Source of the DNA: Spirochaetota bacterium
GTDB lineage: Bacteria > Spirochaetota > UBA4802 > UBA5550
DNA: 64,000 bases
NCBI GenBank assembly: GCA_029564515.1
Contig: JAKQPV010000087.1
Span: forward strand, 106,849-170,848
Direction of reading: 5' to 3'
Position 1 is the stretch's first letter. The number at the start of each line of letters is the position of its first letter. The notes under the pieces are model-generated. The model did no database searches. It was not told the origin of the DNA and saw nothing but the letters and a program-made list of their open reading frames with translations. Of this stretch, positions 46,335 to 60,740 are shown piece after piece. Both the position numbers and the translations under genes were made by a program.

Positions 46335-49100
46335 TTACTTCGATTTCAGGACGAACACGCCGTCCCACCCCCGCGGCGGGGGCGATTTCATGTACTCCTC
46401 GCACTTTTCAACATACACACGGGACGGTCCGTCGTCGGGCAGTACCTTGATGGCCTGCCTGAAATAGCTGATTGCCTGCTTCCAGTCCCGCTTGATGAAA
46501 TAAGAGCGACCGGCGTTGTACTTTTCAAGCATGTCATACATGTAATCGGGAAGCGCGGCCTTCATGCCGAGGAGCTCGTATATGGGCACCGATTCGCTTT
46601 TACCCACCACGCGGATCTTGCCGAGGATACGCGCCTCGATGCTCTCCTTTGCCGCCTCGAAGGTCGAGCCGCTTATCATGGCGGCCGTATCGAAGGACTT
46701 GTTGGCCCCCTCAAGACGCGATGCCAGGTTGACCGCGTCCCCCATGGCCGTGTAGTCCATGCGGGTGCGGGATCCCATGTTGCCAACCGTCGCCTTGCCC
46801 GAGTGTATCCCCATCCGCGCGAAAATAGGCTCAAGCCCGGCCTTCCGCCACGTTTCCTGGAGCTCGCGCAGACGCTTCTTCATATCGACCGCGGCCATGC
46901 ATGCCTTGGTTGCATGGTCGGGCATGAGCACGGGGGCGCCGTAAAAGGCCATAATCGCATCCCCAATATACTTGTCCACGGTTCCGTTGTATTTAAGAAT
47001 GACGTCCGTCATCTCGGTAAGATATTCGTTCAGGCGCTTGACCAGGTCCTGAGGCGTCAGCTTTTCCGATATGGTGGAAAAGCCCTTTATGTCCGAGAAG
47101 AAAATCGTGATCTCGCGGTCCTCGCCGCCCAGCTCGAGCGATTCCGGGTCCTTGATGATCTCGTCGATAACGGTCGGGGAGAGGTAAAAGGAGAAGGCGT
47201 TTTTAATGAAGCGCTTCTGGTTCTCCTCCCTCATGAACTTGATGGCCACGATGGCCGACGAGGGCAAAAACATCGACAGGACGATGCCCAGCTGCTGCAT
47301 CCACACGTTGAACAGGGCGAACACGAGCATGACCGCGAGGTTCAGGAGGATGAAGGTCACCAGCATCGTGACAAGGGACCGTTTCGCGTCCAGGCGCTTG
47401 ATGACATAGCCCATACCCAGGGCTATGACGAGCATCAGGAGCAGGTTAAGCGGCCAGTTCACCCTGCTGATGAATTGCTTCTGAACGATCGTGTTGATCG
47501 TGTTGTGATACGTTCCGACCCGCGCGTATTCATTGTGCAGCGGGATAGCCCCGATGTCCTGCGTGCCGGTGGCCGTGAGACCCGTGAGGGTGATTCTATC
47601 CGACAGGTCCTCAACGCGGATCGCCAGGTCCATGGCGGTGCGTGCATACTCGAGGTTTTTCAGGTCTTTCCCGAGTGCCGCGCTCCTGGTCTGTTTCAGC
47701 TCTTTTTTTACAGCTGTGATTTCCTTGTCATAATTGCCGAGGTATTCCAGCCGCGTTCGGTTCATCTTTTTTTTCAGCGCTGAAATCCTCTTCCAGAGCG
47801 CGGCCCTTCTCGGCCCCGCGCCGCTTGTGCCGTACTCCTCCCGCACGGTTTTCATCTGTTTCTCCAGGTCGGCGAGAAGAGGATTGGCGGTCGCAGCCGC
47901 GATCTTCCTGTTCACCTCTTCCATGCCGGCCGAGAGCATTTTTTTCGTCTCCGCGTCGGCCCCGCCCAGCTCCTCGGTAAAACCGTCGAGCTGCTGCTGC
48001 AGACCGGCCAGCTCATTGGCCTTGCGCGCGTCTTCCTCGTCAAAGAGTCCCCTGACAAACTCGGCATTTTCCTCGTATTCAAGCAGGGCGTAGAAGGGGA
48101 CGAGATGGAACGTCCGTTCGCGCCGGCCCTCCTTCCCTTTGCCGGAGCCTGCCCAGGTAACGTACATCATTCCCTTGTCATCTATGGGGATGGTGATGTC
48201 TTCGACTTTCTGCGAAAGGGGATGGTGCGCTCCGCGCAGGATTATATGCCTGCCGGGTATCACCTCGACGCGGCTCATCGGGGTCTGGCTTGCGTCCATG
48301 AGCATCACCAGGGCAAGGTTAAAATAGAGGCGCCCCTCGAACACGCGGACCAGCTGTACTTTCCTGATTACGCCGTCTATGTCCGTGTACCGGTTCACGA
48401 ATCCGAAAGAACGGGCTGCAGTCATGAGCTCGGGTATCGGGTACGAGATGCTTTTTACCGTCCCTTCGTCCAGGGATTTGAGACGCTCCGATTTCGGCCC
48501 CGAAACCTTCACCGATGCAAGCTCGGTAAACCGTTTCTTTGCCTTGATAAACGCTTCGGACTTCTGCCGCTCCAGCACGTCATACGCGAGGGGCTCATCG
48601 TTGAACGTATAGGCCAGGATGACCCTGTTCATGTACTTGACGCCGTCGGCAAACTGCCGGTCCTTGTTCACGCCGACCGCTTCCACCTCCGTCGGCGTGA
48701 TGCGCGAACCCGCGGCGGCTTTTCTCGTCAGGGCGTCCAGCTCCTTGTTGTCTATGCCCCGCGGCGATGCGTCGGGAAACATGATATCAAAGCTCACCAG
48801 CCCGGCGCCCACGTCGGCGAGCGTCTTGAGCCCTTCCCCGTAGATGTTGCGCGGCCAGGGGAACTGTCCGACCGTGGTCAGGCTGTTCTCGTCAATGTCG
48901 AGAAAATAGAGCCCGTCCCATTCCTCTATCGAAGGACGAAGTGAAAACCTGAGGTCATAGAGCTTCAGCTCGAACACTTCATACACCCGGGTGAAGCAGA
49001 AGATGACTATGAGCAGGTAGAACACCCCTGCAACGGCAAGGCCCGAAAACCTGTTATTCTCGATGAATCCGCTAATCTGTTCAAGATATCGTTTGATCAT
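46335..49100 (-). CDS. CHASE2 sensor domain adenylate/guanylate cyclase (class III) with C-terminal TPR-like tail
   Basis: An N-terminal CHASE2 periplasmic domain is followed by TM helices and a cyclase core (FSDIKGFSTISE, YIGDAIMAFYGAP). Confidence 0.8.
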   Translation of the reverse strand: MIKRYLEQISGFIENNRFSGLAVAGVFYLLIVIFCFTRVYEVFELKLYDLRFSLRPSIEEWDGLYFLDIDENSLTTVGQFPWPRNIYGEGLKTLADVGAGLVSFDIMFPDASPRGIDNKELDALTRKAAAGSRITPTEVEAVGVNKDRQFADGVKYMNRVILAYTFNDEPLAYDVLERQKSEAFIKAKKRFTELASVKVSGPKSERLKSLDEGTVKSISYPIPELMTAARSFGFVNRYTDIDGVIRKVQLVRVFEGRLYFNLALVMLMDASQTPMSRVEVIPGRHIILRGAHHPLSQKVEDITIPIDDKGMMYVTWAGSGKGKEGRRERTFHLVPFYALLEYEENAEFVRGLFDEEDARKANELAGLQQQLDGFTEELGGADAETKKMLSAGMEEVNRKIAAATANPLLADLEKQMKTVREEYGTSGAGPRRAALWKRISALKKKMNRTRLEYLGNYDKEITAVKKELKQTRSAALGKDLKNLEYARTAMDLAIRVEDLSDRITLTGLTATGTQDIGAIPLHNEYARVGTYHNTINTIVQKQFISRVNWPLNLLLMLVIALGMGYVIKRLDAKRSLVTMLVTFILLNLAVMLVFALFNVWMQQLGIVLSMFLPSSAIVAIKFMREENQKRFIKNAFSFYLSPTVIDEIIKDPESLELGGEDREITIFFSDIKGFSTISEKLTPQDLVKRLNEYLTEMTDVILKYNGTVDKYIGDAIMAFYGAPVLMPDHATKACMAAVDMKKRLRELQETWRKAGLEPIFARMGIHSGKATVGNMGSRTRMDYTAMGDAVNLASRLEGANKSFDTAAMISGSTFEAAKESIEARILGKIRVVGKSESVPIYELLGMKAALPDYMYDMLEKYNAGRSYFIKRDWKQAISYFRQAIKVLPDDGPSRVYVEKCEEYMKSPPPRGWDGVFVLKSK

Positions 49101-49271: not shown

Positions 49272-50858
49272 CTAGAAGCTGATGTTGAAACCGGCCATCA
49301 CGAAATGCCGGTATGCCCGGGACGAAAAGCTCGGCGACGGCGTGATGCTGGCCGGAGACAGCGTGTATTGCCACTTGATGCTGTAACCGAATGCATCGCC
49401 CGGTATGAACAGGCCGTAGTTCGTGAAAAATGAAAAATCGGAAAAGATCTGCCACCTGAGCGAGGCGTCCAGGCCGTGCCCTACCTCGCGCTCAAACTTG
49501 GTCGCGTCAAGCCCGTTGTTGATTGCCGCCTCCGCGCGGTGCTTCATGTAATAGAGGTAGCGGGCGATCAGCGTCATGTTCTTCACCGAATAGATCTTCG
49601 ACCATGATAAAGGCGATACCGCCGCGCTTGCGGATATCACGTGCAGGTTGCCCAGGCTCGGCTTGAGGCCATATCCTCCCACGAAGGTGCCGAAATAGAT
49701 AAAACCGCTGTCCTTGCCGAACCGGTTGCCGGTCGGCAGGCGGTAATCATCGCGGTTCGGGTCGCCTGATCCGAATGCGTATTCTGCCGTGAAGACCGGC
49801 TTCAGGAGCACGTTGAGGTAATATTCGATCTTTGCCATCCCGGCGAACGCCATGATGTCCTTCTTCGAGCGAATGTTGCTCATGAGCGGATCGTAGGTGT
49901 AGCTTTTGCCGGTTTCGGCTATGAACTCGCCGGAATACGTAAGCCCGCTCGTGATGACACCCTCCAGGCCCGCGCCGTAATACTGGGACTCGTACCGCGT
50001 CCTGGTGTTGTAATATTGCGCGCCGTCGGCATTGCCCCCGGCGAGGAAGAAGAGGAAGTTATTGTAATTGTACTGCTCCTTGCCGAAATCGAATTGCGCG
50101 AGCCCGAACGCGTACAGGGTCTGGTTGAACCAGGAGGTCGAGAGGGTACCGCCCGCGAACACCCGCTTTGCGCCGGTGGTAATGTCCCGGTCGGAGAGCC
50201 CGTAGGGATTGTCGTCCTTGGCCAGCCATCCGGTCCACGCGCCCAGGGCTTTTATGTTGATATATTTCGTGTTCACGCCGAGCTCGACGCCGTCGCCGCG
50301 GCCGTTCATGACCATGCCGTTCCCGATGAGGAAGTATTTGCGGCCTATCGAGGCGGTGAACTCCTTCCGCGGCGTGGCCATGTCGATGTATCCCAGGTCG
50401 AGATCGATGACATTCTTGTCCTTAGCTCTACTGGTGCCAAGGTACGTTATGGCCGCGGAGGAGGGGTCGCCGGCCAGCAGGTACAGTAAGCTGTTGCGTT
50501 TCTTTTTCTTCTTCTCCTCGGCCGACGCGTTCTTGTCATAGATCACCGCGGTGTAGGTGTCCTTGCCCCTCACATAAAGGAAGCTGTCCTGCCAGAGATA
50601 GGTTTTCATCCAGGCGCGGAAGGTGGTGATGGAGGTGACCAGCTCGCTGCCCGGCGTGTCCTGGTAGATGATGACCGGGGTGATCCATGCCCCGTACTGG
50701 AACCCGCTGGAAATCATGTCCTTCCTGCTCTGGAGGGAGCGCATGTCCTCGTCGCCCTTCATTATCGGGTAATACGGGTCCGCCGGCGCCGCGAATGCCG
50801 CGTGCGCGAACCCGGCCAGGACCGCCAGCATCAGAAGTATGATCGGTATCCGTTTCAT
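49272..50858 (-). CDS. Outer-membrane beta-barrel protein (hypothetical)
   Basis: Has a signal peptide, alternating amphipathic strands and a C-terminal aromatic residue (..NISF). Confidence 0.55.
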   Translation of the reverse strand: MKRIPIILLMLAVLAGFAHAAFAAPADPYYPIMKGDEDMRSLQSRKDMISSGFQYGAWITPVIIYQDTPGSELVTSITTFRAWMKTYLWQDSFLYVRGKDTYTAVIYDKNASAEEKKKKKRNSLLYLLAGDPSSAAITYLGTSRAKDKNVIDLDLGYIDMATPRKEFTASIGRKYFLIGNGMVMNGRGDGVELGVNTKYINIKALGAWTGWLAKDDNPYGLSDRDITTGAKRVFAGGTLSTSWFNQTLYAFGLAQFDFGKEQYNYNNFLFFLAGGNADGAQYYNTRTRYESQYYGAGLEGVITSGLTYSGEFIAETGKSYTYDPLMSNIRSKKDIMAFAGMAKIEYYLNVLLKPVFTAEYAFGSGDPNRDDYRLPTGNRFGKDSGFIYFGTFVGGYGLKPSLGNLHVISASAAVSPLSWSKIYSVKNMTLIARYLYYMKHRAEAAINNGLDATKFEREVGHGLDASLRWQIFSDFSFFTNYGLFIPGDAFGYSIKWQYTLSPASITPSPSFSSRAYRHFVMAGFNISF

Positions 50859-51301
50859 TTTGTGCCCTCCATGCGCTCCGAAACTATCGCCATGACCTCG
50901 AGGAGCTCATCACCCGTGAGCTTGTCCAGCTCGCTGGTGTTCGCGTCCATGATTTTTTCGGCGACGCATGCCCGGTGGGCGTATCGCTCCGTGTCGAACA
51001 TCAGGTAGAGGAGCGATCCCTTGAGCTTCAGGTGGCGCGCCACGATCAGCGCCAGCATGCCGCGGCGAAGCGGCTTCTGCTCATTGTATTTTTTCGCTTT
51101 CAGCAGCTTAAGGGCCTTGAGCGCCTGCACGTTTGCGTCAAACCCCGCCGGGGCCCTGCCCAGCGTGTACAGGTACATCTTGATCCCTTCGCCGAACGTG
51201 ACAACCTTCTTGCCCGAGAGCTCATTTATGAAATTGATTTCCTGTCCGAACCCGGCGGTGCAGACCATGAGTAATACTAATACTATAGCGCAGCGTCTCA
51301 T
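50855..51301 (-). CDS. Secreted hypothetical protein
   Basis: The start is set at MRRCAIV, which carries a signal peptide. It overlaps the OMP gene start by 4 nt. Confidence 0.45.
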   Translation of the reverse strand: MRRCAIVLVLLMVCTAGFGQEINFINELSGKKVVTFGEGIKMYLYTLGRAPAGFDANVQALKALKLLKAKKYNEQKPLRRGMLALIVARHLKLKGSLLYLMFDTERYAHRACVAEKIMDANTSELDKLTGDELLEVMAIVSERMEGTK

Positions 51302-51462: not shown

Positions 51463-52191
51463 TCAGTCAGGCCAGATAAGGTATATCGATACCGGCACTT
51501 TCTGTAACTGGTCCTGGTTGCCGGTCGTGCCCTGGTCATAGAACAGGAAATCGTCCCCGAACAGCTCCAGAGCCTTTTCCTCGTCCACGCTGACGAAGAG
51601 CGAATGGGTCTTGGAGATGAAGTCCTCCATGCCCGACATGACGCTCTCCGACCCGCCCTTGTTCATCTTCTGCCAGAACTGGAGGTTCCCGAAGATCAGG
51701 TTCGAGCCGCCATTCATGCCGCTCCCCTCGACGGTGCCGCTCAGAACGAATACCCGCATGCCGAAGGTCGGGCTGTACACCACGATCTGCTCGGTGCCGC
51801 GCACCGAGGAGGTGGCAACCGGCGTCGAGACCTTGAACACGGTCTTGATGCGGGCGTCCTTCGCCACTTTGGTCCGGACCGACCCGCGCCGCAGGCCGAG
51901 CTGCGTGTTGGAGCTGGAGGCCGTATCGGCGCTCTGGCTGATCTTCATGATGGTGAGGGGCTGTACGGTCACTGTATGGTTGTTGATCCTGATCTCCACC
52001 GTGGAGCGCACGCCGGTGCTCACCTTGGTGCCGACCGCCAGCGCCGTGCCGTTCTGGAGGGGCGTCCACTGGTTCCCGGTTTTATATGCGGCGGTTCCTT
52101 TCACGGAAATGACCCTGATCTCGGCAAAGGAAGGGCCGGCAAACAGAATAAGCGCGACAAGTGCGCTTAGGAATACAAAATAACTTCTCAT
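51463..52191 (-). CDS. FecR domain-containing protein
   Basis: Has a signal peptide and a FecR-like beta domain. The start is set at MRSYFV, 5 nt after an AGGAGGA RBS. Confidence 0.6.
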   Translation of the reverse strand: MRSYFVFLSALVALILFAGPSFAEIRVISVKGTAAYKTGNQWTPLQNGTALAVGTKVSTGVRSTVEIRINNHTVTVQPLTIMKISQSADTASSSNTQLGLRRGSVRTKVAKDARIKTVFKVSTPVATSSVRGTEQIVVYSPTFGMRVFVLSGTVEGSGMNGGSNLIFGNLQFWQKMNKGGSESVMSGMEDFISKTHSLFVSVDEEKALELFGDDFLFYDQGTTGNQDQLQKVPVSIYLIWPD

Positions 52192-52715
52192 GACATCCTC
52201 CTGGCAGGCGGCTGGTAATTGCACCTGTTTATACTTGTGTATAATTTAATGCAATTCATTTTTCATGCCGCCCGGTCAATTAATTAGCCTGCCTGCTTAT
52301 TCCCTGATTATCACCGGTTTCTCCCTTTTTTGAATCGGGATTGGCCTGGATAACGCACCTTTCAAGCTACAGGTCCTTGTATTAATATATCAGAAATCAA
52401 GAAAGGGGCAAAAAAAGATCATAGTATTTCCTTCATTATAGGATTTTTATGCAGAATTGTGGAGAGCCTGATGAATAGCATGTTTATGGCAGAGATATGG
52501 CATATAGAAAACTAACGGCAGTGATCCGAATTTAAAAACCGCCTGTCCGTGTTCTTTTATGAACCAGCTGAAAAAATTATATTAATTATTATCATGAAAA
52601 AAGTTTGCCTATTTCAAGCAGGTTAATATTATATATAGAATCCTGAACAGCGGGCAATTAAGCCCATCATGCCGAAAAAAATAGAGGCGTTCAAACAAAA
52701 CCCGGGGGAGTTCCA

Positions 52716-54020
52716 ATGAAAAGAATACTCAACCTGACCATAGTTTTATCCCTGCTCGCGGGGGCATCACTCTTCTCGTGCGCGGATTCTGAATCGAGAT
52801 CGTCACTGGTTGGCGATGCGACGGTTATCATCAACCTGGGCCTGCCGCCTGACAACGAGACTGCAAGCATCTCGATCATTGACCGCGTGCTCCGCTTCTT
52901 TTCGAGCGAGGCCGTAGCCGCACCCGCGCCTGCCGTGTTCAGCACAATCAGCATCCGTGTTACCGGCGACGGAATAGGCTCTATAGCAAAAGACTTCCCA
53001 CCCACCAGCATCATTTCCATGACCGTGCCGGGCGGGGGCCTGCGTACCTTTGATGTGACTGCGCTGGTTGGCGATACAAGTGCGGTCATTAAATTCCATG
53101 GCTCATCTTCTGCGAACGTGCCTTCAGGTGGGACGGTGAGTATTCCGGTTCTCATGTCAATTCAAGAGACAAACCTGGTAATTCCGGATTATTACAACCA
53201 GCGGCTGGTCATGATGAGTGCCGTCAATGGATTGAACACTTTAACCAGAAACGCGGCCCAGATATTCGGAGGAGCCAGAACATTAAATCCCTGGGACGTG
53301 GATATCGACGCGCGCGGCAGGATTTATTTTTCCAATCCATCCGCAACAGCCTCCGGCGGCATATACCGCATGGACAACATGGACAGCACCTGGGCGGCTG
53401 GGACTTGCGAACAGATGGTAACCGTCGCATCAGGTGTATATTACATTGCTATAGACAGAAAAAGAAATTTTCTTTATTACATCGATGAAGCCGGCAACAA
53501 CACTCTTATGCGTTATAACCTTGCCACCGATTCGCCACAGACGTTATATTCGGGTATTCTTTCACTCCAACCGTTAAGAGTCTGCGTGGATGAAGATACG
53601 GGTTATCTATATGTCGGTTATTTCTCAAGTGGAACGACATCTTTCTATGCCATTCGCAGGTTTGATCCAGATACCACCAGCTGGCTCGGCTCCGCATCGG
53701 TGCGGACACCTTTGCCTTTTGACATGACCGTGCATGAGGGATATCTGTACGAATCCTATATTGGGGCTACTCGCATCAACCAGGTGTCTCTCGAATTTCT
53801 GACAACGATAAACTTTTTAACAGGCGCCCCTGCCCCACTGTCCGATCCTTTTATAGGCCCGACATTGTTCATCGCCCTTACAAACAGGAAGCTGTTTGTT
53901 CTTGATGACTCAGCGTTTGTCGATCCGGATGATCGTGTCGTATCTATTGATGACATCGACGGATCCGGGTGGGAAACAACCGAAACGCCGGGCACGTTCA
54001 GGTTTTACTACATGTGCTGA
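52716..54020 (+). CDS. Paralogous surface lipoprotein 1 (NHL/beta-propeller-like repeats)
   Basis: Lipobox LFSCADSESR, a conserved N-terminal domain, D.D.RGRIY-type repeats and a C-terminal FRFYYMC. Confidence 0.75.
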   Translation: MKRILNLTIVLSLLAGASLFSCADSESRSSLVGDATVIINLGLPPDNETASISIIDRVLRFFSSEAVAAPAPAVFSTISIRVTGDGIGSIAKDFPPTSIISMTVPGGGLRTFDVTALVGDTSAVIKFHGSSSANVPSGGTVSIPVLMSIQETNLVIPDYYNQRLVMMSAVNGLNTLTRNAAQIFGGARTLNPWDVDIDARGRIYFSNPSATASGGIYRMDNMDSTWAAGTCEQMVTVASGVYYIAIDRKRNFLYYIDEAGNNTLMRYNLATDSPQTLYSGILSLQPLRVCVDEDTGYLYVGYFSSGTTSFYAIRRFDPDTTSWLGSASVRTPLPFDMTVHEGYLYESYIGATRINQVSLEFLTTINFLTGAPAPLSDPFIGPTLFIALTNRKLFVLDDSAFVDPDDRVVSIDDIDGSGWETTETPGTFRFYYMC

Positions 54021-54022
54021 GC

Positions 54023-54901
54023 ATGAAGGTCGTCTTCTATACATCCGGCACGACCGGGTCGGGCCGGATGGTGCGGGGGATCGCGGTCGGCACCGCGATC
54101 GCGCGCAGCGGCCTGCCCTGGGACTACACGATCGTGAACAGCTCGCCTTTCGCGCACCTGGCGGACGTCCTGGGCCAGAAACACATCGAGATCCCACCCG
54201 AGCACGAGGACCTGCTCCGGCGGGATACTTTTCGCGATTCCGTCTTATATAATACCCTCGACGCGCTGAAACCGGACGTACTGATTGTGGACCTGCTCTG
54301 GTTCCCGCTCGACAGCTTCATACGCGACCTCCCGTGCAAAAAGGTGTTCCTGTGCCACTACGTGGTAGACTCGTTCTTCGCCGCCCCGCTCAGGGAGCGG
54401 ACCATCTATTTCCGGCCCGATGACTATGACCGGATTCTCGCCATCGAGCCGTTCCGGAACAGGATACCCTTCGACGAGATCAATCCCGTTGTCATACGCG
54501 ACAGGGACGAGATCCTGCCCCGGGAACAGGCCTGTGCCAGGCTGGAACTTGACGGCGCGGGAAAGAACTGCCTGTACGCCTTCAACGGCAACCCGGGCGA
54601 TTTCGAAAAGAACAAAGAAAAGTACGCCCATCTCGAGGACGAGGGTTATTCCATGGTGTACACCACTAATTACAAGGCCGGGTTGTTCCCTGTCGTGGAT
54701 TACTTCAACGCCTTTGACCTTGTTATATGCGCAGCGGGCTACAACCAGTTCTGGGAAACAAAATACTTCGGCAAAAAAGCCCTGTATGAAACCATACAGG
54801 GCAATTTCAGCAGCCAGGAAAAGCGGATAAAAATGGGACGCCGTTTCAAGTTTGAAGCCAACGGCGCAGACCAGCTGGTGGAGATAATCAGGAATCTGTG
54901 A
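54023..54901 (+). CDS. MurG/PseG-like GT-B-fold glycosyltransferase-like protein (paralog A)
   Basis: The ATG lies 2 nt after the lipoprotein stop. The N-terminal Gly-rich loop FYTSGTTGSGR and the C-terminal DLVICAAGYNQFWE resemble GT28-family proteins. Confidence 0.5.
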   Translation: MKVVFYTSGTTGSGRMVRGIAVGTAIARSGLPWDYTIVNSSPFAHLADVLGQKHIEIPPEHEDLLRRDTFRDSVLYNTLDALKPDVLIVDLLWFPLDSFIRDLPCKKVFLCHYVVDSFFAAPLRERTIYFRPDDYDRILAIEPFRNRIPFDEINPVVIRDRDEILPREQACARLELDGAGKNCLYAFNGNPGDFEKNKEKYAHLEDEGYSMVYTTNYKAGLFPVVDYFNAFDLVICAAGYNQFWETKYFGKKALYETIQGNFSSQEKRIKMGRRFKFEANGADQLVEIIRNL

Positions 54902-55204
54902 GCATCACGCTGTGCGGCAATCGGAACGATCTGCACCACCCTCCGCCGTATGGCACAGGAATGCGATATCGCGTAACACCATCCACGAAAACAACCCGTG
55001 CAGGTTTTTTTTAAAGTGTAAAACCGGGCCGGGAATCGGAAAAAAATAACTCAGCTGAAAAATTATTGCTTGTTGCGACCCGTTTTTTAATATATATGAT
55101 GGATGTGTTGCACAACTGCCTGTCATAACTGGTTACGAAGCATGTGCATATACAAAACGGTGTGCAAAAAAAATAATACACGCCGGAACAACCGGGGGGT
55201 TTGA

Positions 55205-56590
55205 ATGAAAAAAATATTTAATCTGGTCATGGCAATTTTCATGCTTGCCGGGATGTCGCTACTCTCGTGCGCGGATGACGAATCAAGGCCGTCCCTTGCC
55301 GGCGACGCCACGGTCATCATCAACCTGGGCCTGCCGCCCGAATACGAAACTGTAAACGCGTCGATCATCGACCGGGTGTTACGCTTTTTCACCAGAGATG
55401 CGGTTGCCGCACCGGCGCCGGCCGCATTCGGCAACATCAGCATCCGCGTTACCGGCAACGGCATCGGCTCGATCGCCAAAGATTTCCCGTCCACAGGCGT
55501 CATTTCCATGACCGTGCCGGGAGGGGGCCCTAGGACGTTTGAAGTAACCGCTATTATTGCTCCGGGCGATCCGAGTGCCATATTTTCCTTCTATGGCTCC
55601 ACCATAGCAAATGTACCTTCTGGTGGAACGGTTAACATACCGATCCTCATGAGTCTTAATGAAACGAAGCTCCTGGTGCCGGACCGGAGAAACAACCGGC
55701 TGGTTCTTCTCGATAATCTAAGCTTGGCCGGCTGGAACACAACAATAACCACATCAGAACTGGGGGCCATCACTGGCGGTTTCTATCCGCATGATATTGA
55801 CTACGATTCACGGGGGAGAATATATATAGCCAACTGGGTCAGCTCCGGCACTGACATCATCAGGATGGACGACCTCAATGGGTCCAACCTCAGACAATTT
55901 GACATTAATTTTGCAGGCGTTTTCAATCTTACCAATGTCATTGGTGTCGCCATTGACCGTTCTCGTGACATCCTCTATTGTATCTCTTCGACTGAACTGT
56001 TTAAAGTTCCCCTGGCCAGCATAGAAAACAATAACATGGTTGGCGTTGTGAGACTTGACAACCCTTCCGACGCAATTTCAAGCAACCTGTATGGAATAGA
56101 CGTGGACGAAGACGGCTTTCCTTACATTGTCAATGGCCTTACGGGCAACTGGCGGATTACAAAATACAATCCCGATCTTTCCACGGCCGGTATTATGTAT
56201 CAGCTGGCGTTCCCGAGCCTCAATTGGGGATATGACATCAAGATTGAAAAACCATATATATACGTATTGAATTCAAGCGGCGCTGCCGATTATCAGGTAC
56301 TTAAATATCATATCGATTACGAGTCACCCCCCACCGCGACCTATTCCCTTGTCGATCATTTCGGCACCAACACGACAACAGCAAACCTTGCTGACGGCAT
56401 GTTCTATGGGCCGCGCAAGTTCGTGGGCATCCGCAACGACGGGCTCTTTATCATTAACAACAAAGAAACAGTTACCTGCCTGTGCAAGATGATCCGGCTT
56501 GGCACCCTGCCGTCGCTGGGATCGGGATGGTCCGCGTTCGGAGCGCACGGCGGCGGGGCCGGCCAATTCAGATTCTACAGCAATTGCTAG
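55205..56590 (+). CDS. Paralogous surface lipoprotein 2
   Basis: Lipobox LLSCADDESR. Long near-identical stretches are shared with lipoprotein 1. The C-terminus is FRFYSNC. Confidence 0.75.
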   Translation: MKKIFNLVMAIFMLAGMSLLSCADDESRPSLAGDATVIINLGLPPEYETVNASIIDRVLRFFTRDAVAAPAPAAFGNISIRVTGNGIGSIAKDFPSTGVISMTVPGGGPRTFEVTAIIAPGDPSAIFSFYGSTIANVPSGGTVNIPILMSLNETKLLVPDRRNNRLVLLDNLSLAGWNTTITTSELGAITGGFYPHDIDYDSRGRIYIANWVSSGTDIIRMDDLNGSNLRQFDINFAGVFNLTNVIGVAIDRSRDILYCISSTELFKVPLASIENNNMVGVVRLDNPSDAISSNLYGIDVDEDGFPYIVNGLTGNWRITKYNPDLSTAGIMYQLAFPSLNWGYDIKIEKPYIYVLNSSGAADYQVLKYHIDYESPPTATYSLVDHFGTNTTTANLADGMFYGPRKFVGIRNDGLFIINNKETVTCLCKMIRLGTLPSLGSGWSAFGAHGGGAGQFRFYSNC

Positions 56591-56591
56591 C

Positions 56592-57467
56592 GTGCGCGTC
56601 GTATTCTACACATCCTCCACCAGCGGCGTGGGCCGTCTGGTGACCGGCATGTCGATCGGGAACGCCCTTCAACGCAGGGGCGTTCCCTGCAAGTATACCA
56701 TCGTGCATTCCTCGCCCATGGGCCATCTGGCCGAGGACTTCGCCACCGTGCGCGTACCGGTGGAGACCGAGGAGGAGCTGTCACCCGCCCGGTCCCGTAA
56801 ATCGGTCCTGTTCAAGACCCTGTCGAAGCTTAAGCCGGACGTGCTGCTGGTGAACCACACCTGGTTCATGGTGCACAGCTTCATCGCCGGGCTGCCCGGG
56901 AAAAAACTCTACCTTTCGGACCAGGCGTTTGACGGCCATTTCCGCGTGCCCCTGCCGTCGGGCGAGCTCGTGTTCGACCCGGGCCGGTACGACCGGGTCA
57001 TCGCGATCGAGCCCTTTGATAGCGCGGTCCCCATGGAGCGCATCAACCCGCTCGTGCTCAGGAACCGGGATGAAATCCTGCCCCGCGAAAAGGCGCTGAA
57101 GCGCCTTGGACTCGACGGCTCAAAGCCGGTGGCTCTCTACAGCCTGAGCGGCAGGCCGGAATACTTCGACCAGTTCAGGGAGAAGTACTCGTACCTTGAG
57201 GGAGAGGGCTATGACGTGGTCTACACCGGCACCTGGAGCAGCAGCTGGATATTCCCGGCGGTGGACTATTTCAACGCAATAGACCTGATCGTGTGCGGCG
57301 CCGGGTACAACCAGGTGTGGGAGGCGAACTTCTTCGCCAAGAAGGCGCTTTTTGAGCTGCTCGATGTCCATTTCAGCGACCAGCGGCTCAGGCTGAGCGC
57401 AAGCGAAAATTTTCACTTTGACATCAACGGCGCGGACCAGCTCGCGGATATTATCATCGGTATATGA
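56592..57467 (+). CDS. MurG/PseG-like GT-B-fold glycosyltransferase-like protein (paralog B)
   Basis: A GTG start lies 1 nt after the lipoprotein 2 stop, giving VRVVFYTSSTSGVGR. It is about 50% identical to paralog A. The listed ORF 56499.. is an in-frame upstream extension. Confidence 0.5.
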   Translation: MRVVFYTSSTSGVGRLVTGMSIGNALQRRGVPCKYTIVHSSPMGHLAEDFATVRVPVETEEELSPARSRKSVLFKTLSKLKPDVLLVNHTWFMVHSFIAGLPGKKLYLSDQAFDGHFRVPLPSGELVFDPGRYDRVIAIEPFDSAVPMERINPLVLRNRDEILPREKALKRLGLDGSKPVALYSLSGRPEYFDQFREKYSYLEGEGYDVVYTGTWSSSWIFPAVDYFNAIDLIVCGAGYNQVWEANFFAKKALFELLDVHFSDQRLRLSASENFHFDINGADQLADIIIGI

Positions 57468-57688
57468 CGACCGTCCGGATGGTTTACGCCGTCCACTGCC
57501 TGACGAACTTTTTCAGCTTTGATTTAATATGAACATAAATTAATTCCCGCATTCCCGGAAATTCCGTAAAAAAATTTGATCCCTCCAGAAATTAAAGTAT
57601 TTTAGTATAAGCTCTAATTATAGATCGAGCTTTTCGTAGCATGCCTGCCGGCTGACTGAAGGCGGGCCGCTTATCTGGAGGCAATGAA

Positions 57689-59020
57689 ATGAAACGAAAA
57701 TTTTCTTTGTTAATAATACCCGTCCTCGCTGCGGCGACTCTCTATTCCTGCGCCGATTCGGAATCCAGGATCCCGGTAGCGGGAAACGCACGGGTTATCA
57801 TTGACCTGGGCCTGTCGCCTGATCAGCAGACCCAACAGGTCTCATTCCTGGACCGGGCGCTCCGCCTGTTCTCGCGCGAGGCCGTAGCCGCCGAGACCGC
57901 GCCCGCAAGCTTCAGCGCCATAACAGTCAGAGTCACCGCTCCCGACATCGGTTTTATAGAAGAGACGTTCCCTCCATCCGGGACAGTGTCGATGAACGTG
58001 CCGGCGGGATCGCTGCGCACCTTCGAGGTTACGGCGCTCGTTTCTCCGTATAATTCGGACCTGCCGCCGACCTGGACGGCCGCGGAATCGTTCCGGGGCG
58101 TCACCCGGGCAAACCTGCCCTCCGGGTCCACGGTAAGCGTCCCGGTGCTCATGAAGCTCGAAACGACCAAGATCATCGTACCCGATTACTATCAGAACCG
58201 TATTGCGTTCCTGACTGACATGAGCGACAGCCCGAACTCCCTGACGGCCGCTGACTACAGCGGCGACTGGGTCTCCATAACGCAGCCGAGGGACGTCGAT
58301 TTCGATGCGCGGGGACGGATCTATTTCGTGTACCAGTACGGCCTCTCGCGCTGTGACGACCTGGGCGGCAGCGGCGGGGTTTCGCTGTATTACTCTACCA
58401 CCCTTGTTGCCGCGGCCGTTGACCGGACCAGGGATCTCGTGTATTTCACCGACGGCTCCACGGTGTTTCGGCGGAATCTGGACGGCTCACTTCCCGGGTC
58501 ATTGCCCGATACGGTTAATACCGGCGGTTACCTGACGGGCATACTGGGCCTGGATGTGGCGCCGGACGGCGATGTACTTGTATCGGCGCTTGACCTGTAC
58601 ACGTATAACAACGGCTTTTTCAGGCTGGACGGCAGCGAGTCGAACGGCGGGATAAAAGGCTCTTTCACCGACACGCAGTTCATTTCAGGGATGGTGCCGG
58701 ACATCATGGTACAAGGCATCTCCGTCTTTGTTCTAAACCCGTATCCTCCCAACCAGCCGTACAGCATGAACCTGATGCAGTTCGTGGCGGGTCCGGGCGG
58801 GAGCTTCTCCCTGGTAAGTGACGGTCCGCTCCCCTCAAACGGCTCTTTTGCCAATGCCGGGCATTTTTCCTCAATCAGAAATGACGGCCTGATAATCATG
58901 GATAAAATATTCGGAACTCCTGACAGCAAAATCATTTTCATGCGGGACGTGAGAGGCAACGGCTGGATCGAGACGTCCGACACGACGCTTCAATTTTACG
59001 ATTACGCGCAGGGTGGATAA
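57689..59020 (+). CDS. Paralogous surface lipoprotein 3
   Basis: Lipobox LYSCADSESR, a conserved N-terminal domain and a C-terminal LQFYDYAQGG. Confidence 0.75.
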   Translation: MKRKFSLLIIPVLAAATLYSCADSESRIPVAGNARVIIDLGLSPDQQTQQVSFLDRALRLFSREAVAAETAPASFSAITVRVTAPDIGFIEETFPPSGTVSMNVPAGSLRTFEVTALVSPYNSDLPPTWTAAESFRGVTRANLPSGSTVSVPVLMKLETTKIIVPDYYQNRIAFLTDMSDSPNSLTAADYSGDWVSITQPRDVDFDARGRIYFVYQYGLSRCDDLGGSGGVSLYYSTTLVAAAVDRTRDLVYFTDGSTVFRRNLDGSLPGSLPDTVNTGGYLTGILGLDVAPDGDVLVSALDLYTYNNGFFRLDGSESNGGIKGSFTDTQFISGMVPDIMVQGISVFVLNPYPPNQPYSMNLMQFVAGPGGSFSLVSDGPLPSNGSFANAGHFSSIRNDGLIIMDKIFGTPDSKIIFMRDVRGNGWIETSDTTLQFYDYAQGG

Positions 59021-59050
59021 TGCCCGTTTGCGGGCATTATCCTTTTTTTT
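59019..59050 (+). terminator. Rho-independent terminator
   Basis: atgcccg-tttg-cgggcat followed by T8. Confidence 0.7.
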
Positions 59051-59337
59051 ACAATTCTGTACGAACATCGGCCATAAACCGGCCTTCATAATTTTTTTTA
59101 TAATTCAATAATGACAATGCTGTATTCATGCAAAATTGACCCGATTTTTCACCTAAATTGAATTTCAACCTCATACGAAATCCAAAAAATAAGTTTACAT
59201 AATTATCCGCTTTATAGATATTATCATTTTAAATACGACTGTGCGGGTTTTTTTACCAGCCGGTCGCAACCTGTTCCAGAACACCGATACAGGGCTTGTA
59301 TATCGCGGTTACGTCTGAAAGTCATAGAGGAACCCAC

Positions 59338-60720
59338 ATGAACCACAAAACGATACTGGCTCCCATATTTTTCCTGACCGTCTGCTCCATGGCCCTGTCC
59401 TGTTCCGATTCCGAATCCCGGATGCCGTTTGCCGATGCCGCTACGGCGGTCATCAATCTCGCGCGCGCCGAAGCGCCCGACCAGGCCCTGTCTGTCGATA
59501 CTCCGATCCGCGGGGGGGGAATGCCGGTTGGAGGGCCCCTGCTTCTGTTTGACCGCGTCAAGGTGGAGATAACCGGACCGGATATCGGAACTATCGTAAA
59601 GAACTTCCCCTTTTCCAACACCGTCTCCTTTGACGTTCCCCCGGGCCCGGTGCGCCGCTTCGAAGTGACCGTGTACACGGCGCCGTACGATCCCGACAAT
59701 TCTCCCACCTGGACCGCCGCGAACTCCTTCCGGGGCGTCACGACCGTAAACCTGCCGGCCGGCGCATCGGTCAGCATACCGGTGCTCATGTCCCTGCATG
59801 AAACGAAGATTGTTGTCCCGGACAAGCTGAATTACCGGATAGTCCAGTTCAACAGGGTCGCGGATGTAGATGCAACATGGATTACGTCCGACTCCGTGCA
59901 GTATCCGGAAGATATTGATTTTGACGCGCGCGGCAGGATATTTGTCGCGAACAATCCCGGCGGTGCGAACAATATTTACCGCATGGAGACCATAAACGAA
60001 ACGCCTCAGCCCTGCCTGATGACCGATGAATCCAACGACATAGTGTCAATCACGGTGGATCGGAAACGGAACCTCCTGTATTATGCCACCGACAATCATG
60101 ACGGCACTGCCGCGCTCACGGGCATTGACCTGACGTCCCTCCCCGCAACAGGCAGCCCGCAATCAACAGTCTCCAATATGTTTTATTCGATAACCGCTCT
60201 GGATGTCGCTGACGACGGTTCATTGTATATCGCGGGAATGGACAAATCTGACAACCAGATACTGTTCAGGTTTAATCCGGCTGACGGTATCTTTATCGGA
60301 CAGGCATTTACCAATAGTGAAAACTCATGGTTCTATCCCCTGGACGTGATGGTGCGGGGCGGGAGTGTGTACGTGCTTAACAATCCGGACGACAACAATG
60401 GCTTTGCTCTTCTCAATTTCAATTTTGGCCCGAGCGCAGTAATAGGTGATCTTGGATTCACCCTTGGAGTGCATTTCGGCTCCGTGGCCCAAGTCGCCAG
60501 GCCGCCCGAAAAAGGCCTTTTTTACGGTCCCAAAAAATTTGCCGTTCGCCGCGAGGACGGCTTCGTCATTATCGATGAGGGCGAATTCTTCTCGCCCGGC
60601 TATCTCAGCATCAACCGGCTCGTTTTCACGGATTTTGACCCACTCAGGCCCTGGTATACGTTCGGCAATACCGATTCGTTTAATCCCGATTTCCAGTTTT
60701 ATGACTATTCAATGTGCTGA
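59338..60720 (+). CDS. Paralogous surface lipoprotein 4
   Basis: The start is the ATG after an AGAGGAA RBS. Lipobox ALSCSDSESR and a C-terminal FQFYDYSMC. Confidence 0.75.
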   Translation: MNHKTILAPIFFLTVCSMALSCSDSESRMPFADAATAVINLARAEAPDQALSVDTPIRGGGMPVGGPLLLFDRVKVEITGPDIGTIVKNFPFSNTVSFDVPPGPVRRFEVTVYTAPYDPDNSPTWTAANSFRGVTTVNLPAGASVSIPVLMSLHETKIVVPDKLNYRIVQFNRVADVDATWITSDSVQYPEDIDFDARGRIFVANNPGGANNIYRMETINETPQPCLMTDESNDIVSITVDRKRNLLYYATDNHDGTAALTGIDLTSLPATGSPQSTVSNMFYSITALDVADDGSLYIAGMDKSDNQILFRFNPADGIFIGQAFTNSENSWFYPLDVMVRGGSVYVLNNPDDNNGFALLNFNFGPSAVIGDLGFTLGVHFGSVAQVARPPEKGLFYGPKKFAVRREDGFVIIDEGEFFSPGYLSINRLVFTDFDPLRPWYTFGNTDSFNPDFQFYDYSMC

Positions 60721-60740
60721 AATACTCATTTCGTAATGAT

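What the first reader, a model, noticed from the sequence alone, without database searches (positions are those of the whole stretch)
52716..60720. Tandem array of four paralogous beta-propeller-like surface lipoproteins, two with dedicated MurG/PseG-like partners
Four plus-strand genes of 434-461 aa encode proteins with near-identical lipoprotein signal peptides: (L)SCADSESR, SCADDESR and SCSDSESR. Downstream of the lipobox, all four share a conserved domain of about 130 aa: GDATVIINLGLPP...IIDRVLRFF..EAVAAPAPA.F..ISIRVTG.GIGSIAKDFP...MTVPGGG.RTFEVTA...ANVPSGGTV.IP.LMS..ETK..VPD. After this domain the sequences diverge into NHL/YVTN-like repeats (D.D.RGRIY, IA.DR.R..LYY, GIDV..DG.LY). Copies 1 and 2 are each followed, 1-2 nt after the stop, by a paralogous GT-B-fold gene of about 290 aa. 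These partner genes are translationally coupled to the lipoprotein genes. The combination of an expanded, diversifying lipoprotein family with one partner glycosyltransferase per gene is not an arrangement I recognise as a characterised system. It could be a lipoprotein glycosylation module or a cell-surface sugar-transfer or sensing module. The four genes are separated by AT-rich gaps of roughly 220-490 bp, which suggests each is regulated individually.
Basis: partly seen in the sequence, partly recalled or inferred. Interest (0 to 1): 0.85.

Follow-up and report, generated by a model that had tools for sequence, protein, structure and literature searches.

The report
Lipoprotein–glycosyltransferase cassettes with cysteine tail
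An uncultured spirochaete carries four related lipoprotein genes, two of them fused back-to-back with a small sugar-transferase gene. Across dozens of spirochaete genomes this transferase sits behind a lipoprotein only when that lipoprotein ends in cysteine (rarely tyrosine or histidine), which points to an undescribed way of tagging the tail of exported proteins.

Summary
There are four paralogous lipoprotein genes: LP1 at 52716-54020, LP2 at 55205-56590, LP3 at 57689-59020 and LP4 at 59338-60720. Two paralogous 291-292 aa genes, GT1 (54023-54901) and GT2 (56592-57467), start 2 and 1 nt after the LP1 and LP2 stop codons.

Structure prediction supports the predicted folds:
- Neither protein has a curated family.

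The LP-GT pair is conserved across Spirochaetota MAGs. In 71 of 86 testable cases the GT gene has the LP directly upstream. The pair often lies in or next to a cluster of small exported protein, AlgE-like barrel, FecR-domain protein and CHASE2 cyclase, which is also present in the window at 46335-52224.

The new result concerns the LP tail. All 86 GT-paired LPs end in Cys (72), Tyr (11) or His (3), in a fixed tail F-x-F-[FY]-x-x-C-COOH. Only 13 of 42 unpaired LPs end in one of these residues.

My best reading, at about 40% confidence, is that the cytoplasmic GT recognises and glycosylates this tail before export. No experiment exists, and the system is known only from uncultured organisms.

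The parts
52716..54020 (+). LP1: lipoprotein precursor, 434 aa. Signal peptide with lipobox LFSC, N-terminal beta-sandwich domain, six-bladed propeller, tail ...FRFYYMC-COOH.
54023..54901 (+). GT1: cytoplasmic compact GT-B glycosyltransferase-like protein, 292 aa, no signal peptide. Its start codon is 2 nt after the LP1 stop.
55205..56590 (+). LP2: lipoprotein precursor, 461 aa, tail ...FRFYSNC-COOH.
   Evidence: It is 100% identical to P0121, a hypothetical protein from a Spirochaetota MAG.
56592..57467 (+). GT2: paralogue of GT1 (49% identity), 291 aa. Its GTG start is 1 nt after the LP2 stop.
   Evidence: Its orthologue in L001 is 71% identical and also follows an LP2-type lipoprotein.
57689..59020 (+). 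LP3: lipoprotein precursor, 443 aa, tail ...FYDYAQGG-COOH with no terminal Cys. It has no GT partner.
   Evidence: No GT remnant was found downstream by tblastn.
59338..60720 (+). LP4: lipoprotein precursor, 460 aa from the ATG, tail ...FYDYSMC-COOH. No GT lies directly downstream.
52779..53210 (+). Conserved N-terminal domain of LP1, from the lipidated Cys to ...NQRLV. The same domain occupies 55268-55705 in LP2, 57749-58210 in LP3 and 59401-59847 in LP4.
   Evidence: Alignment A4 has 69% mean column identity. It is predicted as a beta-sandwich with a low-confidence insert at residues 44-71. There is no Pfam or NCBIfam model. A profile search found only 363 representative clusters among 1.84 billion proteins.
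53997..54017 (+). C-terminal tail of LP1 (FRFYYMC), the proposed recognition and modification tag. The equivalent tails are 56567-56587 in LP2 (FRFYSNC) and 60697-60717 in LP4 (YDYSMC).
   Evidence: The tail register F(-6)-x-F(-4)-[FY](-3)-[SY](-2)-x-C(0) holds across 73 unique GT-paired tails. The terminal residue correlates with GT presence. The tail is low-confidence coil in the AF2 model.
59015..59042 (+). Intrinsic-terminator-like hairpin (12 bp stem followed by T8). It overlaps the LP3 stop codon.
52225..52715 (.). AT-rich divergent intergenic region (GC 0.37) between the FecR-domain gene and LP1. It holds several promoter-like sites on both strands.
51463..52191 (-). Exported FecR-domain protein. 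The likely start is MRSYFVF..., while the ORF runs up to 52224.
   Evidence: Pfam FecR 3e-09, 37.6 bits. It is syntenic with LP/GT in many loci.
50855..51301 (-). Small exported protein ('p162'), with no known family.
   Evidence: No Pfam hit. It is conserved next to the AlgE-like barrel in at least 20 loci.
49272..50858 (-). Outer-membrane beta-barrel of the Alginate_exp (AlgE-like) family.
   Evidence: Pfam PF13372 1.1e-10, 41.4 bits.
46335..49100 (-). CHASE2-domain class III nucleotidyl cyclase with a C-terminal TPR.
   Evidence: Pfam CHASE2 2.6e-30 and Guanylate_cyc 7.5e-23.

Best explanation
The unit is a Spirochaetota-specific two-gene cassette.

**Gene 1** encodes a Sec-exported lipoprotein. 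It has an N-terminal beta-sandwich domain of a family with no curated model, a six-bladed NHL/YWTD-type propeller, and a short flexible C-terminal tail with the fixed register F-x-F-[F/Y]-[S/Y]-x-Cys-COOH.

**Gene 2** starts within a few nucleotides of the lipoprotein stop codon. It encodes a cytoplasmic, unusually compact (~290 aa) GT-B glycosyltransferase of the GT1/GT28 structural class.

**Proposed mechanism (inferred).** The GT recognises the free C-terminal tail of its cognate lipoprotein precursor while the tail is still in the cytoplasm. The tail is the last segment to enter the Sec channel. The GT then transfers a sugar from a nucleotide-sugar to the terminal Cys, or to Tyr/His in variants. 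The mature lipoprotein is therefore exported carrying a tail glycan. In some relatives a SAM-methyltransferase-like gene joins or replaces the GT, which suggests interchangeable tail-tailoring enzymes.

**Evolution and context.** The cassette has duplicated as a unit in this lineage, giving LP1-GT1 and LP2-GT2. LP3 has lost both the terminal Cys and a partner. LP4 keeps the Cys and could be served in trans. The cassette is an accessory of a conserved envelope module (exported FecR-domain protein, AlgE-like outer-membrane barrel, small exported protein, CHASE2 cyclase). The lipoproteins are most plausibly ligand- or partner-binding components of that sensory pathway.

**Shown:** gene anatomy, folds, conservation of the pairing, and the tail/GT correlation.
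**Inferred:** catalysis, the acceptor residue, the timing relative to export, and the role in signalling.
For: 1. **Pairing.** In 78 loci from genomes of different species, 71 of 86 testable GT genes have the LP propeller ORF ending less than 200 nt upstream on the same strand. The stop-to-start gap is mostly -1 to +3 nt.
2. **Co-inheritance.** The cassette duplicates and is inherited as a unit. The nearest relatives of GT1 and LP1, and of GT2 and LP2, sit in the same partner loci. Mantel r = 0.51, with 0 of 999 permutations reaching it.
3. **Tail correlation.** All 86 GT-paired LPs end in Cys (72), Tyr (11) or His (3). Only 13 of 42 unpaired LPs do. After clustering LPs at 40% identity the table is 26/5/0/10, Fisher p = 2.7e-6.
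4. **Not a nucleotide artefact.** Both Cys codons occur (TGT 38, TGC 31), all three stop codons, ATG/GTG/TTG starts and variable spacing.
5. **Fixed tail register.** In paired LPs, F at -6 occurs in 67 of 73 unique tails, F at -4 in 57 of 73, and F/Y at -3 in 65 of 73. The register is loose in unpaired LPs.
6. **Co-loss.** L089 has an LP ending ...DYGGGG followed by a 135-nt GT fragment. L004 has a decayed LP that retains ...GQSLFRFFSTC* directly before an intact GT.
7. **Family-wide feature.** Of 117 full-length family representatives clustered at 50% identity, 73 end in Cys.
8. **The GT looks catalytically competent.** The model is confident, and the fold matches nucleotide-sugar transferases. 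The G-rich loop and the A-G-Y-N-x-F-W-E donor-site motif are invariant or nearly so. Some members pass the Pfam Glyco_tran_28_C threshold.
9. **A second enzyme.** A methyltransferase-like gene directly follows Cys-tailed LPs, or follows the GT, in nine related loci.
10. **Precedent.** S-glycosylation of a C-terminal Cys exists in glycocin F (PMC5890784). From my own knowledge, cytoplasmic GT-B-type enzymes are encoded next to exported substrates in the HMW1C/HMW1, Aah/AIDA-I and TibC/TibA systems.
Against: - There is no biochemical or proteomic evidence. All members come from uncultured MAGs.
- The closest structural neighbours (GtfA, SpnG, UGT51, MGD1, MurG) act on lipids or small hydrophobic molecules, not proteins.
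- The G-loop residue that is His in MurG/PseG is Arg in most family members. This comparison with MurG/PseG rests on my own knowledge.
- Some GT genes stand alone: 15 of 86 lack an upstream LP by HMM. At least three of these still sit beside an LP that was masked, decayed or separated by an insertion.
- Nine Cys-tailed LPs lack an adjacent GT.
- A His acceptor would be chemically unusual.
- The correlation shares phylogenetic history, and clustering only partly corrects for that.
- A tail-binding role without catalysis would give the same correlation.
Confidence: 0.4

Rival explanations
1. The GT is a MurG/MGD/UGT-like enzyme that glycosylates a membrane lipid or small hydrophobic molecule at the cytoplasmic face. 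The lipoprotein then binds, carries or processes that glycoconjugate in the envelope. The methyltransferase seen in relatives would be a further tailoring enzyme.
Against: It does not explain why the identity of the lipoprotein's last residue tracks the presence of the GT gene. It does not explain why LP-MT cassettes keep the terminal Cys. No flippase or lipid-carrier genes are conserved nearby.
Confidence: 0.22
2. The GT-B protein works mainly as a tail-binding chaperone or export pilot for the propeller lipoprotein. It would hold the precursor export-competent in the cytoplasm, with catalysis absent or secondary.
For: The tail-residue/GT correlation and the tight 1:1 coupling would follow equally from binding alone. 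Beta-propellers fold fast and would block Sec export (inference). From my own knowledge, non-catalytic GT-B-fold export factors exist, such as Asp1 and GtfB of the accessory Sec system. The G-loop His is replaced by Arg in most members.
Against: The donor-site motifs are strongly conserved: the G-rich loop, the NGxPGDF loop, AGYNxFWE and the C-terminal NGADQL. This level of conservation is unusual for a non-enzyme. Many unpaired LPs with the same fold evidently need no such chaperone.
Confidence: 0.12
3. LP and GT are functionally linked only through the neighbouring CHASE2-cyclase, FecR and barrel system, for example as co-regulated outputs or inputs. On this reading the terminal-residue pattern reflects a translational mechanism, such as termination-reinitiation efficiency or an arrest peptide sensing export, rather than protein chemistry.
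For: The pair lies in one operon with p162, the AlgE-like barrel and FecR, or divergent from them. Sixteen of 26 full-flank loci carry FecR within 10 kb. Stop and start are 1-3 nt apart or overlap. Export-sensing arrest peptides upstream of a coupled gene are known, SecM-secA being an example from my own knowledge.
Against: The nucleotide context of the junction is variable. No rule is known that ties reinitiation to a Cys, Tyr or His last codon. The upstream FxF[FY] motif is also present in unpaired LPs. Ten of 26 full-flank loci have the cassette without the signalling cluster.
Confidence: 0.1
4. The whole cluster is an exopolysaccharide synthesis and export system. The GT would be the synthase, the AlgE-like barrel the exporter, and the lipoprotein a periplasmic scaffold like AlgK or AlgX.
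For: The barrel belongs to Alginate_exp. A GT and a lipoprotein are encoded alongside it.
Against: No inner-membrane synthase, co-polymerase, flippase or sugar-nucleotide genes are conserved nearby. A soluble 290-aa GT-B cannot translocate a polymer. Four paralogous LPs with divergent propellers do not fit a scaffold role. The cluster is instead tied to FecR and a CHASE2 cyclase. These components resemble the S. meliloti CHASE2 pathway, where a beta-barrel protein (NsrA) mediates signal sensing and a FecR-domain gene is a target of the pathway (PMC13001267, PMC5498481).
Confidence: 0.04

Closest known systems
MurG / GT28 and the GT1 Gtf/UGT glycosyltransferases (GT-B fold); PseG UDP-sugar hydrolase
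   Different: No significant sequence match to any PDB chain or to NCBIfam. The window copies fall below the Pfam thresholds. No Glyco_transf_28 N-terminal domain hit. The G-loop His is Arg in most members. The gene context is not cell-wall, glycolipid or pseudaminic-acid biosynthesis but a lipoprotein gene.
[not shown]
   Same: A soluble GT-B-type enzyme without a signal peptide is encoded adjacent to one specific protein, and enzyme and substrate are inherited together. Except for EF-P, the substrate is later exported through Sec.
   Different: The GT family is different. The proposed acceptor is the extreme C-terminal residue in a fixed tail motif, not internal sequons or repeats. The substrate is a lipoprotein with a propeller. 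Nothing has been demonstrated experimentally.
Glycocin S-glycosyltransferases (SunS, GccA, ThuS); glycocin F carries an S-linked GlcNAc on its C-terminal cysteine (PMC5890784)
   Same: A sugar is placed on a Cys side chain, in glycocin F on the very last residue. The enzyme is encoded beside the substrate gene.
   Different: From my own knowledge, those enzymes are GT2 (GT-A fold). Their substrates are ~40-aa bacteriocin peptides of Firmicutes, not 45-kDa lipoproteins.
Ig-like domain plus six-bladed NHL/YWTD propeller proteins: TolB, Lin41 filamin-NHL, Bacteroides BT_3476-type lipoproteins, PknD sensor domain
   Different: Sequence identity is only 8-19%. The N-terminal domain has no curated family. 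The conserved C-terminal Cys tail and the coupled GT are not features of any of these.
CHASE2 adenylate cyclase pathways with a FecR-domain protein and an outer-membrane beta-barrel. Examples: S. meliloti CyaD1/CyaD2/CyaK with NsrA and SMc02177 (PMC5498481, PMC13001267); Campylobacterota clusters (PMC9239204).
   Same: The window and many related loci place a CHASE2 cyclase, an exported FecR-domain protein and an outer-membrane barrel together. This matches the component list of those pathways.
   Different: The barrel here is Alginate_exp-type. The small p162 protein and the LP-GT cassette are additions not described in those systems. The signal is unknown.

Membership tests
GT-B fold glycosyltransferase superfamily | Two facing Rossmann-like alpha/beta domains with an inter-domain cleft | tested here: met
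   [not shown]
GT-B fold glycosyltransferase superfamily | Conserved nucleotide-sugar donor site in the C-terminal domain and catalytic activity | tested here: inconclusive
   E245, the AGYNxFWE motif and the NGxPGDF loop are invariant or nearly so in 38 sequences, and the region aligns to Glyco_tran_28_C. Activity is not testable with these tools.
GT28 (MurG/MGDG synthase family) | Pfam Glyco_tran_28_C above the gathering score | tested here: inconclusive
   GT1 scores 12.7 bits against a cut-off of 22, and GT2 has no hit. Homologue P0020 scores 25.7 bits, above the cut-off. Fifteen of the 120 listed homologues carry PF04101.
GT28 (MurG/MGDG synthase family) | Pfam Glyco_transf_28 N-terminal domain, and a lipid I or diacylglycerol acceptor context | tested here: not met
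   There is no N-terminal domain hit in either copy. No mur or lipid-synthesis genes are conserved nearby.
PseG (UDP-sugar hydrolase of pseudaminic acid synthesis) | Match to the NCBIfam PseG model and pse gene neighbours | tested here: not met
   [not shown]
NHL/YWTD six-bladed beta-propeller | Six four-stranded blades; similarity to NHL/YWTD structures | tested here: met
   [not shown]
NHL/YWTD six-bladed beta-propeller | Pfam NHL repeat above the gathering score | tested here: inconclusive
   The window LPs score 13.6-16.2 bits against a cut-off of 20. Homologues P0125 and P0126 score 21.3 and 26.4 bits. LP1 passes PF10282 Lactonase (27.8 vs 21.7 bits), but only over 112 residues.
Bacterial lipoprotein | N-terminal signal peptide ending in a lipobox with an invariant Cys | tested here: met
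   Each has a basic n-region, a hydrophobic core and L-[FLY]-S-C or A-L-S-C. Cys22 is invariant in 20 sequences. Nearly all the full-length family representatives printed show a Cys after a hydrophobic N-terminal stretch.
Bacterial lipoprotein | Actual lipidation and final location (inner membrane, periplasmic face of the outer membrane, or surface) | not testable with these tools
Dedicated protein-glycosylation pair (substrate-adjacent cytoplasmic GT) | The GT gene is consistently adjacent to one substrate gene and co-inherited with it | tested here: met
   71 of 86 GT genes have an upstream LP. Paralogue-specific orthology of pairs holds.
Dedicated protein-glycosylation pair (substrate-adjacent cytoplasmic GT) | An acceptor motif in the substrate that depends on the enzyme | tested here: met
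   A terminal C/Y/H occurs in 86 of 86 paired LPs against 13 of 42 unpaired LPs. The tail register is fixed. There are co-loss cases. This evidence is correlative only.
Dedicated protein-glycosylation pair (substrate-adjacent cytoplasmic GT) | A glycan demonstrated on the substrate | not testable with these tools
   This needs mass spectrometry of the co-expressed proteins.

The most novel reading that the evidence does not exclude
A previously unrecognised protein-modification system. A family of compact GT-B enzymes, sometimes joined or replaced by a methyltransferase, would modify the side chain of the very last residue (Cys, occasionally Tyr or His) of propeller lipoproteins. Recognition would be through a C-terminal tag F-x-F-[FY]-x-x-C-COOH, in the cytoplasm just before Sec export. 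This would be the first S-glycosylation of a bacterial lipoprotein and the first by a GT-B enzyme. It would define a new C-terminal tag/enzyme pair specific to Spirochaetota and tied to CHASE2-cyclase envelope sensing.
Probability: 0.33. Interest if true: 0.85.

Novelty: new variant of a known kind. Interest (0 to 1): 0.66.

Why it matters
Neither protein family has a curated model or any literature, yet the pair is conserved across many uncultured spirochaete lineages. The link between the lipoprotein's last residue and the presence of the transferase gene gives a concrete hypothesis that can be tested cheaply: co-express in E. coli and measure the mass of the tail.

If confirmed, it would have several consequences:
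- It would add a new enzyme family and a new acceptor logic (a C-terminal residue tag) to bacterial protein glycosylation.
- It would give annotators a rule for naming several hundred 'hypothetical' proteins.
- It would add a modified lipoprotein component to the poorly understood pathways built from a CHASE2 cyclase, a FecR-domain protein and an outer-membrane barrel.
- A short C-terminal tag with a dedicated small transferase could be useful as a site-specific protein-labelling tool.

Tried and rejected
- **Sequence families.** Pfam, NCBIfam and PADLOC gave only sub-threshold or partial hits for LPs and GTs. A profile search of PDB sequences with the GT alignment found nothing meaningful.
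- **Other conserved neighbours.** I clustered all ORFs of the 80 loci held at that point. Only LP, GT, FecR, the AlgE-like barrel, p162 and the CHASE2 cyclase recur. The remaining large clusters I checked are shadow ORFs of these genes.
- **RNA elements.** An Rfam scan of 51000-62000 found no riboswitch. The only hits are sub-threshold Thr_leader/sRNA matches at 60675-60855, at the hairpin after LP4.
- **Regulatory motifs.** There are no CRP-like TGTGA-N6-TCACA sites and no 10-mers shared by three or more of the four upstream regions.
- **Decayed genes in the window.** tblastn found no GT remnant after LP3 or LP4 and no methyltransferase homologue.
- **Positive selection.** dN/dS against the L005 orthologues is 0.1-0.24 throughout. 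The propeller simply diverges faster.
- **Nucleotide-overlap artefact.** I tested and rejected the idea that the terminal Cys results from overlap with the GT start.
- **Exopolysaccharide-export reading.** Considered and ranked low because no synthase or flippase is conserved nearby.
- **Anti-phage defence reading.** Rejected.
- **Not available.** The AFDB fold search was not on the machine.

Full report
**1. What is in the window**

ORF listing confirms six + strand genes at the stated coordinates.
- LP1 is 52716-54020 (434 aa) and GT1 is 54023-54901 (292 aa).
- LP2 is 55205-56590 (461 aa) and GT2 is 56592-57467 (291 aa, GTG start).
- LP3 is 57689-59020 (443 aa) and LP4 is 59338-60720 (460 aa from the ATG).

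The junctions read TGC TGA gc ATG for LP1/GT1 and TGC TAG c GTG for LP2/GT2. The partner genes therefore start 2 and 1 nt after the lipoprotein stops, and no separate ribosome-binding spacer fits between them.

Other features of the array:
- The four LPs share a signal peptide with a lipobox Cys followed by C[AS]D[SD]ESR.
- They share an N-terminal domain of about 145 aa with 69% mean column identity, and then diverge (32-46% overall identity).
- GT1 and GT2 are 49% identical.
- The intergenic gaps are 491, 303, 221 and 317 bp. Their GC is 0.37-0.46, against 0.51-0.61 in the genes.
- A strong terminator-like hairpin overlaps the LP3 stop codon (59015-59042).
- LP2 is 100% identical to a 'hypothetical protein' of a Spirochaetota MAG, so the window comes from an uncultured spirochaete.

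**2. Folds**

Curated profile libraries give little. For the LPs there is a partial Lactonase propeller hit and sub-threshold NHL hits. For the GTs there are sub-threshold Glyco_tran_28_C and Glyco_transf_4 hits. NCBIfam and PADLOC return nothing of use.

Structure prediction is clear for the GT.
- GT1, modelled with 38 homologues, gives pLDDT 94.3 and pTM 0.92.
- Invariant or nearly invariant residues fall on the Gly-rich loop after beta-1 (SGxTGSGR), the NGxPGDF loop and the AGYNxFWE helix of the C-terminal domain.
- That helix is the segment Pfam aligns to the GT28 donor site. One homologue passes the Pfam threshold.

The LP model is of moderate quality.
- LP1, modelled with 20 sequences, gives pLDDT 80.
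- It shows a signal helix, a low-confidence tether, a beta-sandwich (residues ~34-160, with a disordered insert at 44-71) and a propeller.
- The last ~14 residues are low-confidence coil.

**3. Conservation of the pairing**

- The GT family has at least 324 members. The 120 listed are nearly all 283-315 aa (one is a 174-aa fragment) and all are unnamed.
- A scan of one genome per species found 78 loci, nearly all in Spirochaetota MAGs, including Leptospirales, Treponematales and Spirochaetia.
- I built HMMs for each component and applied them to six-frame ORFs. By this test, 71 of 86 testable GT genes have the LP propeller ORF ending less than 200 nt upstream on the same strand.
- Several apparent exceptions are artefacts or decay. 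One locus has a masked region, one has an insertion of repeats, and one has a decayed LP that still leaves ...GQSLFRFFSTC* directly before the GT.
- About eleven GTs are truly stand-alone.
- In the reciprocal test, among 40 LP-anchored metagenome loci, 27 of 50 LPs have a GT directly downstream. Most orphan LPs sit in arrays that contain a paired LP. A few loci (FecR-LP repeats) show no GT within the DNA held.
- Pairs duplicate as units. The nearest relatives of GT1/LP1 and of GT2/LP2 lie in the same partner loci (L005, L001).
- The N-terminal LP domain is a small family. It has 363 representative clusters among 1.84 billion proteins, most of them 410-475 aa lipoproteins.

**4. Wider context**

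Upstream on the minus strand the window encodes four proteins:
- an exported FecR-domain protein (51463-52191),
- a small exported protein (50855-51301),
- an Alginate_exp-type outer-membrane barrel (49272-50858),
- a CHASE2 class III cyclase (46335-49100).

The same set accompanies LP-GT in many genomes. In several lineages it forms a single operon, p162 - barrel - FecR - LP - GT, with the cyclase divergent. Of 26 loci with full 10-kb flanks, 16 carry FecR, 14 the barrel and 12 the cyclase. Among the large ORF clusters I checked, no other gene family recurs.

Clustering of CHASE2 cyclases with FecR-domain genes has been noted in Campylobacterota (PMC9239204). In S. meliloti a FecR-domain gene is a target of the CHASE2-cyclase/Clr pathway (PMC5498481), and the outer-membrane barrel NsrA mediates signal perception by CHASE2 cyclases (PMC13001267). 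The LP-GT cassette is therefore best seen as a spirochaete-specific accessory of an envelope-sensing module.

**5. The unexpected result: the last residue**

While tabulating LP C-termini I found that the very last residue tracks the presence of the GT gene.
- After removing two frameshifted assemblies, both of which in fact also end in Cys, all 86 GT-paired LPs end in Cys (72), Tyr (11) or His (3).
- Only 13 of 42 unpaired LPs end in one of these residues. The rest end in G, S, T, V, P, I, R and others.
- Counting each state once per cluster of LPs at 40% identity gives 26/5/0/10, Fisher p = 2.7e-6.
- In paired LPs the tail has a fixed register: F(-6) x F(-4) [F/Y](-3) [S/Y](-2) x C(0). In unpaired LPs the distance to the end varies.
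- This is not a nucleotide-overlap artefact. Both Cys codons occur (TGT 38, TGC 31), all three stops occur, starts are ATG, GTG or TTG, and gaps run from -1 to 19 nt.
- Among 117 full-length family representatives at 50% clustering, 73 end in Cys.
- Co-loss is visible. An LP ending ...DYGGGG is followed by a 135-nt GT fragment in L089.
- The window itself follows the rule. LP1 (...FRFYYMC) and LP2 (...FRFYSNC) have GTs. LP3 (...DYAQGG) has none. LP4 (...DYSMC) keeps the Cys without an adjacent GT.

In nine related loci a 254-aa gene appears. It has a SAM-binding motif and a weak Methyltransf_23 match. In some loci it directly follows a Cys-tailed LP (tail ...LYSQC, no GT). In others it overlaps the end of the GT, giving LP-GT-MT. 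It is absent from the window.

**6. Interpretation**

The simplest account of these observations is that the cytoplasmic GT recognises the free C-terminal tail of its cognate lipoprotein precursor. The observations it explains are the tight coupling, co-duplication, co-loss, the terminal-residue rule and an alternative enzyme at the same position. On this account the GT modifies the terminal residue before the tail enters the Sec channel.

There are precedents for each element. Glycocin F carries an S-linked sugar on its C-terminal Cys (PMC5890784). From my own knowledge, cytoplasmic glycosyltransferases are encoded beside exported substrates in the HMW1C, Aah/TibC and GtfA/B systems.

I rate this at about 0.4 because nothing is demonstrated and the structural neighbours mostly use lipid or small-molecule acceptors. 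The rivals are:
- a lipid or small-molecule acceptor whose product the LP handles (0.22),
- a tail-binding chaperone or pilot role (0.12),
- a purely translational or regulatory link within the CHASE2 module (0.10),
- a polysaccharide export system (0.04).

The biological role of the LPs is inferred from fold and context only. A propeller that diverges 3-5 times faster than the GT but remains under purifying selection suggests binding components with differing specificities that feed the FecR/CHASE2 pathway.

**7. Novelty and verdict**

In kind it resembles known dedicated enzyme-substrate glycosylation pairs. It differs in three respects: a different enzyme family, a lipoprotein substrate and a C-terminal-residue tag. 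I therefore classify it as a new variant of a known kind. If the tail modification is confirmed, it could prove categorically new.

Noticed in passing
window 46335-52224 (minus strand): A conserved envelope-signalling cluster sits next to the array. It comprises a CHASE2 class III cyclase with a C-terminal TPR, an Alginate_exp-type outer-membrane barrel, a 148-aa exported protein of no known family, and an exported FecR-domain protein. In other spirochaete lineages these form one operon with LP-GT.
   Followed up: yes
window 44880-46250 (minus strand); also L001 1-398: An S41 tail-specific protease (CtpA/CtpB-like, PDZ + Peptidase_S41) lies directly beside the CHASE2 cyclase in the window and in L001. 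PDZ domains of such proteases read C-terminal residues, so it might interact with the conserved LP tails. I saw this synteny only in the window and in L001; other loci were not checked for it.
   Followed up: partly
L083 5195-5959; L001 10501-11265; L007 18911-19687; L038 15161-15943; L088 9565-10362: A 254-aa SAM-methyltransferase-like gene (motif ILDIGVGFGKWG; Pfam Methyltransf_23 E 0.002). In some loci it directly follows a Cys-tailed LP (tail ...LYSQC) in place of the GT. In others it overlaps the 3' end of the GT, giving LP-GT-MT. It is absent from the window.
   Followed up: partly
L004 7139-11150: In a distant genome the GT is flanked by short lipoproteins (157-244 aa). These carry only the N-terminal LP domain, and two of them continue into a C-terminal extension that looks fibronectin-III-like by eye (not tested) in place of the propeller. 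One ends ...ENYYAC. A decayed propeller ORF leaves ...GQSLFRFFSTC* immediately before the GT start.
   Followed up: partly
L061 8828-10000: About 1.2 kb of repetitive sequence has been inserted between an LP (tail ...SFYMC) and its GT. Recurring peptide-like units such as SLSNHRDERV and EPVEPSRRA appear in several frames. The nature of the repeats was not examined.
   Followed up: no
window 60675-60855: Sub-threshold Rfam hits occur on both strands just after the LP4 stop (Thr_leader 42 bits against a gathering score of 55; also MicC and anti-hemB). They coincide with a terminator-like hairpin and are most likely a bidirectional terminator, not a leader.
   Followed up: partly
LP residues +1 to +7 after the lipobox: window 52779-52799, 55268-55288, 57749-57769, 59401-59421: The lipoprotein tether C-[AS]-D-[SD]-E-S-R is almost invariant across the closer half of the family (CSDSE[SHR]R in many representatives). 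This is unusual for a tether. It may be a sorting signal, since acidic residues near +2/+3 affect lipoprotein localisation in other bacteria (from my own knowledge). More distant members have unrelated tethers.
   Followed up: no
proteins P0211 (882 aa), P0183/P0186/P0214 (~535 aa), P0207 (618 aa): Some family representatives carry 2-7 tandem copies of the N-terminal LP domain, so this domain can exist as a repeat module independent of the propeller.
   Followed up: no
GT residue 15 (window 54065-54067 and 56634-56636): The Gly-rich loop reads TGSGR in most family members but TGSGH in divergent ones (L068, L072-L074). The His version matches the GGTGGH loop of MurG and PseG, where the His is catalytically important (from my own knowledge). 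The switch does not obviously track LP presence.
   Followed up: partly
window 60839-62362 (+): A 507-aa predicted membrane protein with a long charged coiled region and no Pfam match lies directly downstream of LP4. A homologue was detected only in the closest relative (L005), so it is probably not part of the cassette.
   Followed up: partly
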